A stretch of 63,859 nt of DNA, the filler included, from Intoshia linei (Eukaryota; Animalia; Orthonectida): assembly GCA_001642005.1 (NCBI GenBank). It is 5 parts of 5 records of this genome, joined end to end, with 100 filler letters (N's around TTAATTAATTAA, not from the genome) between each part and the next. Parts side by side here need not be neighbours in the genome. Positions count along the whole stretch, not along the records: positions 1 to 24,950 come from LWCA01000516.1; 4 more parts are not named here. One strand, written 5' to 3'. The translations under genes and the position numbers were made by a program. The first letter of the stretch is position 1. Each line of letters opens with the position of its first letter. The notes beneath the pieces are model-generated. The model was not told where the DNA came from. It worked only from the letters and a program-made list of their open reading frames with translations, and did no database searches. Below are positions 15,363 to 21,300 of the stretch, one piece after another.

Positions 15363-18300
15363 TTATAAAAGTTCATATTGTCGCAAATGCATTCGTTGTA
15401 TTATATCGCGACAATCATTAAAAACTCTTTTAATGTTTTCAGTGTCAACTGCACAGGTAAAATGAGGATAACAAAAATGTTTAGAATCTCTTTGATCTTT
15501 TGAGTTTGATATGGTTAATTTCTAATGAAATAATAATTAACATAATTACAATGAAAAATAATTACCAAAAATTGATCACGTATAAAAAATTTAGCTCGTA
15601 AAACTTCTGAATCTTCAGATCTATCATCTTTTACTAAAATATAAAATAATATATTTTAAAGTATATAAATACCGTCACTAGGAATAAGATAGGTTGAAAA
15701 ATCACTGAAATAGTTTTCTAGTTTTGATATTCCGCTGAGTATTTTTTCAGTCAACAAATCTTGTTTGTTTAAGAAGAGTATAACGGAAATATTTTTTAGC
15801 CATCTATATAAAAAATTATGAATTATTGCATAGCTAAATTACGTTATCACCGATTATTCCATATCATGGTAAAGAGGTCCAAAGATTCCCTTAAGCGGTT
15901 TTGTTTATCGTCCTCCCTGAGTACCATATTGTAGCTTGAACAAGCAGTCACAAATATAATTGCCGTAACGTCGTTAAAACACTGTATCCACTTTTTTCGT
16001 TCATCTCTCTGTCCTCCGACGTCAAACATGCTGAAATATTTATGTTTATATGTATTTACATTATAATTTATTACTGAAATTGGACTTTGTCAATGGAAAA
16101 TCGTGTTTCAAATATACCAGATGTTAGAACTCGACATCGCAAAATATCCTATGTAATATAGTTTGTATTATATTTTTATTTTATTATTATTGTATTTATT
16201 AATATTTAATTTGGATAAAAGATATAATTTGTTACCTGTTCTACAGGGAAATAATCTTCTTTTGCAATTTCATTGTTTCTATCCAAAAAACTATTTAAAA
16301 TTTTAATAAAAATAAAAATTATTGTATAAAAAAATTAAAAGAATCTTGAAATTAAAATTTATAATTTTAAAATATCTATTAAAACGTTAGATATTATTTA
16401 GTTAATTATTATTTGTTATGATAAATAAAATTACTATTTGGCACAATCAATAAGTTGAAATTCATGGGATCGATCAAAGGTTTGTTTAATGCCTTTATCT
16501 TTCCAAAGACGATCGATGTGTTCAAAAAATATGTTGGGGTATTCGTATTCAACAACGTTGGCTAAGCTTTGAATAAAATCAACACATTCTTGATTTCTTT
16601 CCACTTCTAGCGTAACGGGTGGGTCTATTCTGCTCATGGCACCAGTTAAAACCTATATAATATAAATATTTAATAATACATTTTAAAATTACAAGCATAG
16701 CATCTTTTATATTTCTCTTTATATCTTTGATTTTTATTTGGCATTCTCTAATTTATAAAATATTAAAATGATATAATTATTACATTTTAATTAAAAGGTG
16801 TATTTTTTTACCGAAAAATTACACCTCCACTATTTTTCGATTCCGTTATTTAATCAAAAAAATTTTATTTTTACAAATTTCAAACTCTAATGGAGAAATA
16901 CTGCATCAAATTTAACAACGATTTAAAGATACAACCTTAGATATCTATACGGACACAAAGTATCAAAGTATCACAAACGAAACTAAAAGTTATATAAATT
17001 TGTTAATATCATTTTTATATTTATTACAATCCTTTGCAATATTGGTGAAATTCGACTTAAATATGTTTATAAAGTGAAGATTCGGTTAATTATTGATACA
17101 TAATTGGTATTTTTAAGTATTTATTAAATTGGTAGTGAATATAATCATCACATCACAATGTGATAAAAATGGACAAAGACATAAAATTGATGTTTCCAAT
17201 GTTATATTTAGTTGGTTCGAACTTTAATTATTTTATTTCTATGTATGATATTTCTAAAAAATATAAACACGATGTCAATAATAACACAGGTAATAAAATA
17301 TATTTTTTTAGAAAAAGAAGTAAAATCAAAGTTAGACAGTAAACCAAAGAAGAGGAAGCCACCAGTAATAAAACCGGAACATTCTAAAGTGTTGGTGGGA
17401 GTGAAGATCAATACAAACAGTAATAATGATTGCTGGTACTTTCGTAACCAAAGATCTTTTTAGAACGATTGATATCCACTCGATCATTAAGGCAAGGGCT
17501 TACTTAGAAGTAACTAAAGCTCACATGGTGAACTTTAAAGACCTTTTGAGAAAAGTTGCTGTGTCCCTTGTTACTGAGCTCTTAACAATGTACTGTACTT
17601 CTATCAATAAAAACTACACGTACATCACGGTATATCCTAGCAAAGGAAAAAACGTTGAAAAAAATTGTTCATATTGTACCTGTTTCAATTTGAATAACTC
17701 GAATAAACATATAATGCTTTGTACTGACAAAGATCCTCAATTTTATTTGTGTTATAGACGAGTTGAAAATAAAACGAAGACGAGAAAAAATAATAAACGA
17801 GATAATGAAAATAATATAGATAAAAATAGTAAAATTAGGAAAAACAGTGGTAATAAATCTTTATCAGATTTAGATGGTCCGAAAGGAGCTGTCTTGTCTG
17901 ATCATAGGCTACCTAAAGTGGAACCTATTGAACCCGGAACCGTTTTAATGACTACAAAAAGCATCTTCACTAATGATGTATATGGCCTGTCGTATGATGT
18001 CAACAGTAATATGTCAAGATAAATAAATATTATAGATATATATATATATTTATATTTATATATATAGATAATTTAATGTCAAGCAGGTTACGTTCCTGCG
18101 TTCAAAGACCATGAAGGGAAACGTGTATTGGATAAAACTAAATGTTTGACATATATAACCCCATCGTAAGATTCAAGAGCTGTTCTATTTAGTGAAGATT
18201 TATATACCAAGAAGAGAGTCTTAGATCTACAGTACACAAACAATAATGTGGAGACATTGCGGAATTTCCTATACAGCAAGATAGGTACAGCAGAGCAAGT

Positions 18301-21300
18301 AGACCCACTGATAGTTGCGAGTTACATGTATATTTTGGCGAAAGAAGGATTCGGAAAATTTTTGGAAGAGGTCAACTGGAACACCGTATGTGTTTGTAAA
18401 CCAGGAGAGTTGGCTGGACTTAAAAATTTTGTGAAGGTGACTGAGTCAGAACATACTTTTGAAAATCCGGTTGATTGTCCGGATGTTTCAAAGTATACAT
18501 ACGGGATTCTATTATATTATCTTTCACATTTAAAGATTAAAAAGGATTTAAACATAGACCTAGCTGGTTATAAAACTAAAACAATGGAAAGAGTAAAAGA
18601 GATCCTAAGGGTAAGCAATGTGATGCTTCCCTTAGATATATAGATAAATATTATATTATTAATATAAATATTATAGATATATAGTATATTATTTATAAAG
18701 AAATTTCCTCAATTTATAATAATATGTTTTCACTCTCGCTTAAAAAGGCGTGCAAGTGTACTATAGATTCAAATTACGACTACAATCAACCGAAAGGTAA
18801 AATGGTCAACGCAAGTAACCATTGGGTCAATAGTCTGTTTAGTCCTATATTTAGAAGTCTATTGAACAGATTGAGAAAAATTTGAAACCATCAATTTGCT
18901 TGTCAATTGGATATGGCGTGGAAAAACTGGAAAACTTTACCAACACATACTCTCATTAAAAGGACAAATATATAGAAATTGATATGTCGTCATTCGACAA
19001 GTCACAGAATACTTTATCCGTACAATCATTTATGTATTTGTATATCTTGTTAGGTCTGCCGAATGAGTTTGATGTAATGTGGGACGACTTGCACCGATAT
19101 ACAAGGTCAGTCAGTAGGAATGGATTAAGCTTCTTTAAGTTTTATCAGACTCAGTCTGGTGATCCATCTACGGCCTTTGTTAATACGGTGTATAATATAA
19201 ACGCTTGCGCAAATATCCTATTAAAACATAACTGGAACTACGCCTATTCATGGGAGATGATATTCTAATATATAATATCTAATCTAATATATTAGTACAA
19301 GAAATAAATGTAACGATCAGTGATATTCAAGAATTTTCTAGAAAATTCAATTTACCTGCTAAAGTTTTAAAAAGTGATATAGGTTATTTTTGCGGGAATT
19401 ACCTAGTGAAGAACGATAAATCTGTGAGACTGTTACCAGATCCTGTCAAAACGTTAGAAAAACTTAGTCATACTACAATAAATAACTAAAAAATTAGCTG
19501 AACGATTCTTAAATTTCAAGGACTTGACTAGTTTTTACAATAACGTATTGTATAACCAACTATTAACGGATGCGGTTTGTCACATAATGAATCATCACAT
19601 TGAAAATAACAAAATAGATTGAAGGATATTGAGTCTTGAGAGTAACAGTTTATTAATTAATTATTAATTAGTTTAAACAATTTTAATTATTATTACTACT
19701 CCCTTCTTTTAGAAAAGATATTTAATAGTCATTTAAATATTTGGGATATTTTAAGTTTTTACGTAATCTGAAACGCGGGTGAGTTTTATTAACAATTGGA
19801 TTATGACAATTAATTCAATTCATTAATTTTTAATTTTTTTCCGGTTGATTGTCATCCCTAAACTAAGGAAGTTTTATAAAAAAAATAACTAAAGCTTTGA
19901 TTCATATATTTAGATTCAATTGCACTAATAGCAAGGAAATGTGGATTCAATAACGTTGAGGAAAAAATAAAAGATCAATTTATTGCTAGCTGTAAACACA
20001 GTAAATTACAGGAAAGACGTACAGAAAAAAACAGACAGAAATTGCAGGAAGTGATAGATTTCAGCAGACAGTTCGAAATTTTCAACAAACCAGCAAAAAA
20101 ATTGTCACAGTGCATTCAATGCGGACAATTATACAACAATTATCATTGTTTTTGTATCCAAGTAAGAAATTAAAGCTTATAAACTCATATATCATCAAAT
20201 AATTGAAAGTATAACTAAATTTTAAACATTAATATAACAGACTGTACAATGTGCAGTGCACATGCAAATAAGACCTGCTACCGAAACCGAGGTAACCAAG
20301 TTACTATACATAAGGACGCAGGCAGTCACGTAGTTATAAACAAAAAGAATGCACAGTTCTACACTAAAGGCTGGTGGAAAGTTAGACCATAGTGTTGACG
20401 ACTGATACACATGCGCCAGGACTTGTCAAGGATGCTACCATACGTCAGAAGAAAATTGTCAAGATTGAATATAAGGAGATCGAAAATTGCTCAGTTTTAA
20501 GAAGGTTGATAACAAAAAAATTGAAGTTGGGGAATCTCCCTGCTGTTGGTGTATCAATTATGTATATTTATAAAACCTTGGCCAGCGAGTTTATCTTGTG
20601 CAATCGAGAAATTCAGATTGATAAGTATGGAGATGAATCGTTCCCAATAGAAGGATAAGGTGATCACGTCGGATTATCCGATATATTGGACATAAAGTAT
20701 GGAGAAAAGAACATCGACAAGGCAGCTGAGGATTTAAATGAAGAAGTCGAAATAATTGAAAGGGACGTAAGAATATGTCTTTTTCCTATATTAGGTATAA
20801 GATTCTCCAAACCAGGTAATACCGTGGCAATGGCGTGAACATCCAAAGCGAAGACTTCTACACTCCAATATCGTTAAAACTCTCTTTACATGCCTCTAAA
20901 GGTTTATTCAGTCCACATGACATAGGTTTCCTGAAATTTCACGTTAAAAAGGAACCACAAAGAGAATTCCTACATAGAATTGCATTTGATACGGAGGTGA
21001 ATGGAAAATCAAGGAAGATATATGAAACATATCAAGGAGATGACCGCGGTACTATACAAGGTTCCATGAGGTTAGCAACCATAGCAACTATATATTATGA
21101 GGATGCTTCTTTGTCGCTGATAAAAAAATTCATGATAGAGGAGTATGGATTCATATTTATGGTTTCATACAGTAGCATGGACCAACGTATCAGATGAGAT
21201 TTGGAAGATGATGGAAGATTCAGAGCTTGGAGAAAGGGATTCTCTCATGTTTTTTCTGGAATTTATGCTATTTATGGCAATTTTTAAAATTGGACTGTTT

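What the first reader, a model, noticed from the sequence alone, without database searches (positions are those of the whole stretch)
18076..21300. Two mutually divergent rhabdovirus nucleoproteins in one locus
Both fragments cover the same N-terminal region of N ([10 protein letters not shown] vs [20 protein letters not shown] vs [10 protein letters not shown]) but show no obvious nucleotide similarity. They are therefore independent captures, not a local duplication. They would record two rhabdovirus-like lineages that infected this host's germ line, likely undescribed if the host is a poorly sampled parasite (inference).
Basis: partly seen in the sequence, partly recalled or inferred. Interest (0 to 1): 0.72.

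Follow-up and report, generated by a model that had tools for sequence, protein, structure and literature searches.

The report
Composite viral gene fossils in Intoshia
Inside an intron of a host G-protein gene of the parasite Intoshia linei lie broken leftovers of genes from two kinds of RNA virus, the head and the tail of a rhabdovirus-like nucleoprotein and a piece of an alphavirus-like polymerase, likely copied into the germ line by a host reverse transcriptase; a second, divergent nucleoprotein is not shown.

Summary
The window is Intoshia linei (Orthonectida) DNA. The locus 18077-21352 (+) is a decayed cluster of endogenous viral elements lying antisense in an intron of a G-alpha gene.

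**Shown:**
- 18077-18643 is the N-terminal lobe of a rhabdovirus-type nucleoprotein (N). It is 64% identical to a paralogue that passes Pfam Rhabdo_ncap.
- 18685-19489 is a frameshifted alphavirus-like RdRp (Pfam RdRP_2).
- 20826-21197 is the C-terminal tail of the same Intoshia N family (E 1e-20 to a paralogue).
- 21250-21352 is a truncated dispersed repeat with AATAAA and an A-run.

- It is coding-like.
- It has no Pfam, PDB or database relative.
- Its likeness to the N head is marginal: 4.1 bits against a family HMM, with 20 of 2000 shuffles as good. Pairwise, 195 of 3000 shuffles are as good.

**Conclusion:** the locus holds two N-derived pieces that are not duplicates of each other. They are the non-overlapping head and tail of one family, so two N lineages are not demonstrated. 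The N family sits on 8 Intoshia contigs. It has no exogenous relative at E <= 0.001 among 1.84 billion representative proteins. This is a new member of a known kind, of moderate interest.

The parts
18077..18643 (+). Head (N-terminal lobe) of a rhabdovirus-type nucleoprotein of the Intoshia N family. It is 5'-truncated, has an in-frame TAA at 18167-18169, and homology ends at about 18637 (..MLPLD).
   Evidence: tblastn with P0003: 64% identity over 161 aa, E 6e-69. Family HMM: 18170-18640 scores 242 bits on positions 52-202, and 18077-18166 scores 17.9 bits on positions 24-50. Pfam Rhabdo_ncap on the fragment itself: E 0.021, 14.2 bits, below the cut-off of 26. Paralogue P0003: 35.9 bits, above the cut-off.
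18644..18684 (.). AT-rich filler between the N head and the RdRp piece. It resembles the AT-rich stretch at 18033-18075.
   Evidence: Sequence; direct repeat D1, 72% identity.
18685..19622 (+). Fragment of an alphavirus-like-superfamily RNA-dependent RNA polymerase, broken over three frames: 18685-18885, 18960-19268, 19283-19489, plus an unassigned end at 19482-19622. GDD lies at 19253-19261 in a shifted frame.
   Evidence: Pfam RdRP_2 PF00978: E 6.4e-6, 3.8e-17 and 6e-13 on collinear profile positions 132-183, 213-297 and 323-376 of 440. Three-frame translation shows [23 protein letters not shown] and FMGDDILI. Weak PDB match to alphavirus nsP4, E 0.015.
19688..19804 (.). Dispersed host repeat between the RdRp piece and the following ORFs.
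   Evidence: Summed contig depth in X2 is 137-267 against 2-4 nearby; in X1 it is 88 against 25.
19901..20173 (+). U1: 90-codon open frame of unknown origin.
   Evidence: no Pfam family at E <= 0.01.
20219..20392 (+). U2: 57-codon open frame of unknown origin.
20386..20838 (+). It is 150 codons with one TAA at 20656-20658. It looks coding-derived, but its origin is unresolved and its N-head likeness is marginal.
   Evidence: GC 0.375, like the N pieces.
20826..21197 (+). C: C-terminal tail of the same Intoshia N family, in another frame than A/B and abutting it without filler.
   Evidence: tblastn with P0006 residues 100-179: 51% identity, E 1e-20; with P0004 residues 336-374: 41%, E 9e-6. Family HMM: 44.2 bits, E 6e-13, positions 388-461 of 467.
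21250..21352 (+). 5'-truncated copy of a highly repeated short element, ending in AATAAA and TTAAAAAAA.
   Evidence: Summed contig depth is 2261-16869 against 25.5 beside it. Other copies continue upstream with other letters (loose ends at 21250). A second copy lies at 12808-12877 on the minus strand, 83% identity.
22930..23168 (-). Context: the first two exons of a host G-protein alpha subunit gene (MGAIGC...[19 protein letters not shown]).
15850..16652 (-). Context: later exons of the same G-alpha gene. The viral composite therefore lies antisense in its roughly 6-kb intron.
   Evidence: Pfam G-alpha, E 2.8e-29, for 15850-16089; helical-domain-like ORF at 16434-16652; DVGGQR motif.

Best explanation
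The locus is a decayed composite of endogenous RNA-virus elements. It holds the head and the tail of one Intoshia-specific rhabdovirus-type nucleoprotein family, a frameshifted alphavirus-like polymerase fragment, and about 1.2 kb of unassigned coding remnants. It was likely made when a host retroelement reverse transcriptase copied viral RNAs into germ-line DNA.

Shown:
- The identity of the N head (18077-18643).
- The identity of the RdRp pieces (18685-19489).
- The identity of the N tail (20826-21197).
- All lie on the + strand.
- All are broken by stops and frameshifts.
- They sit between exons of a minus-strand G-alpha gene.
- The N tail abuts a truncated, highly repeated element that ends in AATAAA plus an A-run.
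- The public gene model A3Q56_04157 strings bits of all of them together.

Inferred:
- Head and tail come from the same kind of N mRNA.
- Either the composite arose by template switching of a reverse transcriptase primed on the repeat's RNA, or it arose by successive insertions into one spot.
- It no longer makes a protein and is a fossil.

I give about 0.35 that it is a very divergent N head. The evidence in hand therefore does not establish two N lineages.
For: **Host.** Fragment 1 is 100% identical to part of A3Q56_04157 of Intoshia linei. All other family members are Intoshia linei proteins.

**N head.** Paralogue P0003 passes Pfam Rhabdo_ncap at 35.9 bits against a cut-off of 26. A three-sequence family profile finds only VSV nucleoprotein chains in the PDB: 5 of 5 hits, E 0.018, profile positions 48-169 on VSV N residues 44-163.

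**N tail.** E 1e-20 to P0006 and 44.2 bits on HMM positions 388-461.

**Head and tail as ordinary family members.** The head is 58-65% identical to paralogues, against a within-family range of 35-65%. The tail is 44-52%, against 48-55%.

**RdRp.**

**Decay.** There is a TAA at 18167-18169, at least three frame changes in the RdRp, a TAA at 20656-20658, and a frame change at about 20826-20838.

**Host context.**

**Assembly.** A 1514-nt contig of run X1 covers 19830-21307. It bridges the A/B-tail junction and the tail-repeat junction.

**Repeat.**

**Retroelement association elsewhere.** Another family member, P0006, carries an N tail in one gene model with a tyrosine-recombinase-like stretch (source name; Pfam Phage_integrase E 0.063 for one member).

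**Gene model.** The sequence of P0002 contains pieces of the 17405 ORF, the N head, the RdRp, U1, U2, A/B and the tail.
Against: - The mechanism is not shown. No target-site duplication could be recognised in the AT-rich flanks, and the head-RdRp junction is only AT-rich filler.
- The middle of N (family HMM positions 203-387) is absent. Head and tail could equally be two separate truncated insertions.
- The fragment itself scores below the Pfam cut-off (14.2 bits).
- A broader ten-sequence alignment (A6) lost the VSV N hit.
- No fold evidence exists (pLDDT 41).
- A/B shows a weak collinear likeness to the N head, with p about 0.01 by HMM. The best blastp hits of A and of B fall collinearly on the P0003 N lobe, with E 2.1 and 0.10. 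Its GC content matches the N pieces. So a second N head cannot be dismissed.
- X1 may be the very sample that was assembled, so its contig is not independent support.
Confidence: 0.5

Rival explanations
1. Segment 20386-20838 would be the N-terminal lobe of a second, far more divergent rhabdo-like nucleoprotein captured independently, so the locus would record two N lineages.
For:
- The family HMM gives 4.1 bits, with only 20 of 2000 shuffles as good.
- The ORF ranks 10th of 1244 window ORFs.
- The best blastp hits of ORF A and of ORF B fall collinearly on P0003 residues 215-240 and 264-287.
- By eye only, not scored, the VSV N residues printed share LK-GN and GD--G--D----K with this segment at the matching places.
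- GC is 0.375, like the N pieces and unlike the RdRp at 0.31.
- It lies directly 5' of an N tail on the same strand.
- There is no nucleotide similarity to the head.
Against: - There is no Rhabdo_ncap hit even at E <= 10.
- There is no PDB hit to any N.
- hhalign gives a probability of 0.3% and aligns elsewhere.
- Pairwise Smith-Waterman against the head: 195 of 3000 shuffles as good. Sum over four heads: 139 of 3000. Semi-global sum: 663 of 3000.
- Six unrelated ORFs of the window score higher on the family HMM.
- The abutting tail is a typical family member, so a chimera of two different N genes would be needed.
Confidence: 0.35
2. U1, U2 and A/B (19901-20838) would be downstream genes of the same alphavirus-like virus as the RdRp piece. 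Under this reading, 18685-20838 is one cDNA of that virus's 3' part lying between the halves of an N element.
For: - The strand and order match. The RdRp piece runs to about the natural end of the Pfam model (profile position 376 of 440 at 19489, plus 46 codons) and is followed by further open frames.
- Downstream genes of invertebrate alpha-like viruses often have no known family (recalled).
- U1 has the same GC as the RdRp, 0.30 against 0.31.
Against: - A dispersed host repeat (19688-19804) and stop-rich AT-rich DNA separate the RdRp from U1.
- A/B and U2 have a GC of 0.375-0.385, like the N pieces.
- No relative of any of these frames was found.
Confidence: 0.12
3. The locus would be a working host gene, A3Q56_04157 as annotated: a domesticated fusion of viral pieces spliced into one 642-aa protein.
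For: A public gene model exists. Several long open frames persist in DNA of about 30% GC.
Against: - The model skips conserved parts of N and of the RdRp, including the palm motifs, and joins pieces of unrelated proteins.
- Stops and frameshifts fall inside the homologous regions.
- The whole model has no Pfam domain at E <= 0.01.
- No run on record as RNA was listed as a holder. That blank is not evidence either way.
Confidence: 0.03

Closest known systems
Rhabdovirus-N-derived endogenous viral elements of arthropods and other invertebrates (recalled: Katzourakis and Gifford 2010; Fort et al. 2012)
   Same: Fragments of a mononegavirus N gene lie in host chromosomal DNA. They are multi-copy (8 contigs here), truncated, and broken by stops.
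   Different: The host is an orthonectid. I found no paper on its viral elements. The N family is so divergent that no exogenous N reached E <= 0.001 among 1.84 billion representative proteins.
Vesicular stomatitis virus nucleoprotein (PDB 2gic and related entries)
   Same: The family profile aligns positions 48-169 to VSV N residues 44-163, the N-terminal lobe. One paralogue passes Pfam Rhabdo_ncap.
   Different: The similarity is weak: E 0.018, and 14 bits for the window fragment. Only the head and the tail are present here, and the RNA-binding centre is missing. The fold was not confirmed.
Mixed EVE clusters of mosquitoes, where pieces of unrelated RNA viruses sit together with retroelement fragments, often in piRNA clusters (recalled: Palatini 2017, Whitfield 2017). 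ter Horst et al. 2019 was seen only in the reference list of PMC11097642.
   Same: Pieces of a negative-strand virus and a positive-strand virus lie side by side in one orientation, next to repeats.
   Different: No small-RNA data exist here, and whether Intoshia makes piRNAs from this locus is untested. The cluster is small (3.3 kb) and lies in a gene's intron.
Retroposon-mediated capture of viral mRNA, as in LINE-made bornavirus-like N elements (recalled: Horie et al. 2010)
   Same: An N-derived sequence ends against a retroposon-like tail with AATAAA and an A-run.
   Different: The A-run belongs to the repeat, not to the N mRNA. No target-site duplication was found. The repeat's nature (SINE, LINE tail or other) is unknown.

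Membership tests
Rhabdovirus nucleocapsid protein (Pfam PF00945 Rhabdo_ncap): head fragment 18077-18643 | Score at or above the Pfam gathering threshold (26 bits) | tested here: not met
   The fragment alone scores 14.2 bits, E 0.021, on profile positions 27-158 of 410.
Rhabdovirus nucleocapsid protein (Pfam PF00945 Rhabdo_ncap): head fragment 18077-18643 | Close homology to a protein that passes the threshold | tested here: met
   The fragment is 64% identical over 161 aa to P0003. P0003 scores 35.9 bits, E 5e-9, on profile positions 12-160. Three of 10 family members hit Rhabdo_ncap at E <= 1.
Rhabdovirus nucleocapsid protein (Pfam PF00945 Rhabdo_ncap): head fragment 18077-18643 | Sequence similarity to a solved rhabdovirus N | tested here: inconclusive
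   Profile A2 finds only VSV N chains, 5 of 5 hits, but at E 0.018. Profile A6 of 10 sequences lost them. The fragment alone finds nothing.
Rhabdovirus nucleocapsid protein (Pfam PF00945 Rhabdo_ncap): head fragment 18077-18643 | Two-lobed N fold | tested here: inconclusive
   The AlphaFold2 model of the head with 5 paralogues has a mean pLDDT of 41. No fold search was run on it.
Rhabdovirus nucleocapsid protein: central region | Conserved central S-P-Y-S-type motif of the RNA-binding region (motif recalled) | tested here: not met
   The window lacks family HMM positions 203-387 altogether. Paralogues carry KSAYSA at the expected place, which is only similar to the recalled motif.
   Pfam gives none at E <= 10. 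PDB gives no N. hhalign gives 0.3%. The HMM gives 3-4 bits, with 20 of 2000 shuffles as good. The model has pLDDT 36.
Intoshia N family: tail fragment 20826-21197 | Significant collinear match to the C-terminal part of family members | tested here: met
   P0006 residues 100-179: 51% identity, E 1e-20. HMM positions 388-461: 44.2 bits.
Alphavirus-like superfamily RdRp (Pfam PF00978 RdRP_2) | Score at or above the gathering threshold (27 bits) | tested here: met
   Two pieces score 62.7 and 48.9 bits. The third scores 25.7 bits, just below.
Alphavirus-like superfamily RdRp (Pfam PF00978 RdRP_2) | Palm motifs A (D-x4-D), B (SG-x3-T-x3-N) and C (GDD), in order (motif definitions recalled) | tested here: met
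   [23 protein letters not shown] and FMGDDILI are present. The last lies in a shifted frame at 19250-19270.
Non-retroviral endogenous viral element | Viral sequence contiguous with host genes, with disrupted frames | tested here: met
   G-alpha exons lie on both sides on the same 24950-base contig. Stops and frameshifts are present. A contig of run X1 spans 19830-21307, though it may come from the same sample as the assembly.

The most novel reading that the evidence does not exclude
The composite is the fossil of a single reverse-transcription event. A host retroposon's enzyme, primed on its own RNA tail, jumped in turn onto RNAs of a rhabdo-like virus, of a second and very divergent rhabdo-like virus, and of an alphavirus-like virus that were all replicating in the same orthonectid germ cell. 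On this reading the locus records a mixed infection by at least two unsampled virus lineages of one of the simplest animals known.
Probability: 0.15. Interest if true: 0.6.

Novelty: new member of a known kind. Interest (0 to 1): 0.36.

Why it matters
Endogenous copies of rhabdovirus N genes and of other RNA-virus genes are common in invertebrate genomes, so the kind of feature is known.

Three things are new here:
- **The host.** My searches of the held library found no paper on viral fossils of Orthonectida.
- **The isolation of the N family.** It occupies eight contigs in Intoshia linei, yet no exogenous relative reached E <= 0.001 among 1.84 billion representative proteins. That points to an unsampled rhabdo-like lineage that infected orthonectids or their hosts.
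- **The mixture.** Negative-strand and positive-strand virus pieces lie side by side, next to a repeat tail. This makes the locus a small test case for how such mixtures arise.

The result also flags the public gene model A3Q56_04157 as a chimera of pseudogene pieces.

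Tried and rejected
- **Whole genome.** None is held for this window.
- **Structures.**
  - AlphaFold2 of 20386-20838 read with X at its stop gave pLDDT 36.
  - AlphaFold2 of the head with 5 paralogues gave pLDDT 41.
  - Both models are unusable, so no fold search was run.
- **Phylogeny with viral N proteins.** This was not possible.
  - The profile search of 1.84 billion representatives gave 10 hits. Nine are Intoshia proteins and one is a bacterial repeat protein that I take as spurious.
  - The two word-based searches with N queries gave Intoshia proteins only.
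- **Searches for relatives of 20386-20838.**
  - The word-based search covered only proteins of 264-2000 aa and found only the locus's own model. Proteins of 82-262 aa were never searched, which is a gap.
  - IMG/VR gave none.
  - JGI metagenomes gave none.
  - The ESM Atlas gave no usable hit for ORF 20386-20655.
  - For the N tail, which is a true N piece, the Atlas gave only scores of 0.76 to unrelated bacterial clusters. Its blanks therefore mean little.
- **RdRp piece in IMG/VR.** None found.
- **Recalled N motif as a DNA pattern.** I dropped it.
- **Sequencing runs.** No RNA holder was listed.
- **Joints in run contigs.** Contigs join 19614-19617 to 21250, but they rest on sides of 23-28 letters in A-rich sequence. 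I did not build on them.
- **Weak tblastn hits of N paralogues at 43-45 kb.** These fall in a Sec7/GBF1 host gene and are chance.
- **The 14-nt exact repeat at 18466 and 19840.** There is no extended similarity around it.
- **Earlier findings of this scan.** None turned up.

Full report
**Host and context.**
- The first fragment (18170-18643, + strand) is 100% identical to part of the Intoshia linei protein A3Q56_04157, whose contig is 24950 bases long.
- The window has N-runs starting at 24951. It therefore appears to be several contigs laid end to end, and the finding lies on the first.
- The DNA is 21-34% GC and carries ordinary host genes.
- A G-protein alpha subunit gene runs on the minus strand.
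  - Its start (MGAIGC...LLLLG) is near 23031-23168.
  - Its P-loop exon ([14 protein letters not shown]) is near 22930-23000.
  - Later exons are at 16434-16652 and 15850-16089.
- The locus under study (18077-21352) therefore sits antisense in an intron of about 6 kb.

**The first fragment is the head of a rhabdovirus-type nucleoprotein.**
- It is 64% identical over 161 residues to A3Q56_01664 (P0003, E 6e-69) and about 52-61% identical to A3Q56_08266 (P0004).
- On its own it scores only 14.2 bits on Pfam Rhabdo_ncap (E 0.021, cut-off 26). P0003 scores 35.9 bits on profile positions 12-160.
- A three-sequence family profile finds only vesicular stomatitis virus N chains in the PDB: 5 of 5 hits, E 0.018, with profile positions 48-169 on residues 44-163. 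A looser ten-sequence alignment lost this hit.
- Homology starts at about 18077, right after an AT-rich stretch. It crosses an in-frame TAA at 18167-18169 and stops at about 18637.

**The N family in Intoshia.**
- Word-based and exhaustive searches found members only in Intoshia linei: A3Q56_01664, 08266, 07597, 07544/07545, 08491/08492, 01237, 06912, and this locus.
- That makes eight contigs.
- The exhaustive profile search of 1.84 billion representative proteins gave 10 hits at E <= 0.001. Nine are these Intoshia proteins. One is a bacterial repeat protein that I take as spurious.
- No exogenous virus N was retrieved, so the proposed phylogeny could not be built.

- Three collinear pieces (18685-18885, 18960-19268, 19283-19489), each in a different frame, match Pfam RdRP_2. 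The E-values are 6e-6, 4e-17 and 6e-13, on profile positions 132-376 of 440.
- Motifs DMSSFDKSQ and [14 protein letters not shown] are present, and a frame-shifted FMGDDILI follows.
- The best PDB matches are alphavirus nsP4, though weak (E 0.015).
- A contig of run X1 shows a second copy that is about 91% identical over 19012-19194.

- *The 3' part (20826-21197, frame 0).*
  - It matches the C-terminal tail of family members: P0006 residues 100-179 at 51% identity, E 1e-20, and P0004 residues 336-374 at 41%, E 9e-6.
  - A family HMM of 467 positions gives 44.2 bits on positions 388-461.
  - Its identity to paralogues (44-52%) is within the family's own range for the tail (48-55%). The head's 58-65% is likewise within the range for heads (35-65%).
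  - Head and tail are therefore ordinary, non-overlapping pieces of one family.
- *The 5' part (20386-20838, frame 1, one TAA at 20656-20658).*
  - This part carries the quoted motifs. Its 150 codons with a single stop in such AT-rich DNA argue that it derives from a coding sequence.
  - Evidence for an N head:
    - A head HMM gives 4.1 bits, with 20 of 2000 shuffles as good.
    - The best blastp hits of its two halves fall collinearly on P0003, with E 2.1 and 0.10.
    - Its GC (0.375) equals that of the N pieces, whereas the RdRp is at 0.31.
    - By eye only, it shares LK-GN and GD--G--D----K with the VSV N residues printed.
  - Evidence against:
    - There is no Rhabdo_ncap hit at E <= 10.
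    - There is no N in the PDB search.
    - hhalign gives 0.3%.
    - Smith-Waterman against the head leaves 195 of 3000 shuffles as good. The sum over four heads leaves 139 of 3000, and the semi-global sum leaves 663 of 3000.
    - On the full family HMM it scores 3.0 bits, ranking 10th of 1244 window ORFs behind six unrelated ones.
    - No relative was found in IMG/VR or JGI metagenomes, or among proteins of 264-2000 aa. Shorter proteins were not searched.
    - The single-sequence model has pLDDT 36.
  - I leave this part unassigned and give about 0.35 that it is a very divergent N head.

**The right end and the assembly.**
- From 21250 the sequence is a short element present in many contigs. 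Summed contig depth is 2261-16869, against 25.5 for the neighbouring contig.
- Other copies continue upstream with different letters. A further copy lies at 12808-12877 on the minus strand.
- The element ends in AATAAA and TTAAAAAAA at about 21352.
- A second repeat occupies 19688-19804.
- A 1514-nt X1 contig covers 19830-21307 and bridges both junctions of the tail. X1 may be the assembled sample itself.

**Reading.**
- The locus is a decayed composite of endogenous viral elements.
- The same-strand order is N head, RdRp, unassigned frames, N tail, truncated retroposon-like tail.
- This order fits reverse transcription by a host retroelement enzyme with template switching, or serial insertions into one spot. 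That step is inferred, not shown.
- The public 642-aa model A3Q56_04157 strings pieces of all parts together while skipping their conserved cores. I take it for an annotation chimera.

**Literature.**
- Searches for Intoshia with "endogenous viral" (0 papers) and with "nucleoprotein" (0 papers) found nothing.
- Orthonectida with "rhabdovir" gave 4 papers, of which 2 were listed.
  - In PMC11097642 I read the matching passages only. Orthonectida appears there only in a tree description.
  - I saw PMC13524379 only in the listing.
- Comparisons with arthropod N-derived elements, mosquito EVE clusters and LINE-made bornavirus-like elements are recalled, not read here.

**Verdict.**
- This is a new member of a known kind: the first viral fossils I can find described for an orthonectid, an N family without detectable exogenous kin, and a mixed-virus composite.
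- Two N lineages are not demonstrated.

Noticed in passing
window 24743, 24951-25050, 51447-51546, 60463-60562, 62699-62798: Paired N-runs of 44 bases with 12 letters between them. The first begins one base after the 24950-base length given for the contig of A3Q56_04157. The window therefore looks like several contigs laid end to end, and only 1-24950 is contiguous with the finding.
   Followed up: partly
window 21250-21352 and 12808-12877 (minus strand): A short, very abundant dispersed element (TTTTTTCTGGAATTTATGCTATTTATGG...). In run X1 the summed contig depth is up to about 660 times that of the neighbouring contig. It ends in AATAAA plus an A-run, and its nature (SINE, LINE tail or small-RNA gene) is unknown. 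Some contigs join letters like 19590-19617 to it, 15-18 letters before 21250, but only on sides of 23-28 letters.
   Followed up: partly
window 17405-18022 (+): A 205-codon open frame with no Pfam family lies just upstream of the N head in the same intron. It forms the start of the public gene model A3Q56_04157. Its origin (host, transposon or virus) is unknown.
   Followed up: no
window 18466-18479 and 19840-19853: An exact 14-nt repeat, TCCGGTTGATTGTC. It encodes PVDC in the N head and occurs again in the stop-rich spacer after the RdRp. There is no extended similarity around it, so it may be chance or the last trace of another N piece.
   Followed up: partly
window 19012-19194: Run X1 holds a second contig about 91% identical to this part of the RdRp piece (16 differences in 183 letters). 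At least one more copy of the alphavirus-like polymerase fossil therefore exists in the genome.
   Followed up: no
proteins P0003 and P0006/P0008 (other Intoshia contigs): In A3Q56_01664 an N core and tail are followed directly by an N head (tail-to-head order). A3Q56_07544 joins an N core and tail to a tyrosine-recombinase-like stretch, and its neighbour 07545 is an N head. N pieces elsewhere also sit in rearranged, transposon-associated arrays.
   Followed up: no
window 567-1298 (minus strand) and 61305-63601: Remains of a Tc1/mariner transposase (DDE_3, HTH_Tnp_Tc3) and of an LTR-retrotransposon polymerase (RVT_1, RT_RNaseH). The latter is a possible source of reverse transcriptase in this genome.
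   Followed up: no
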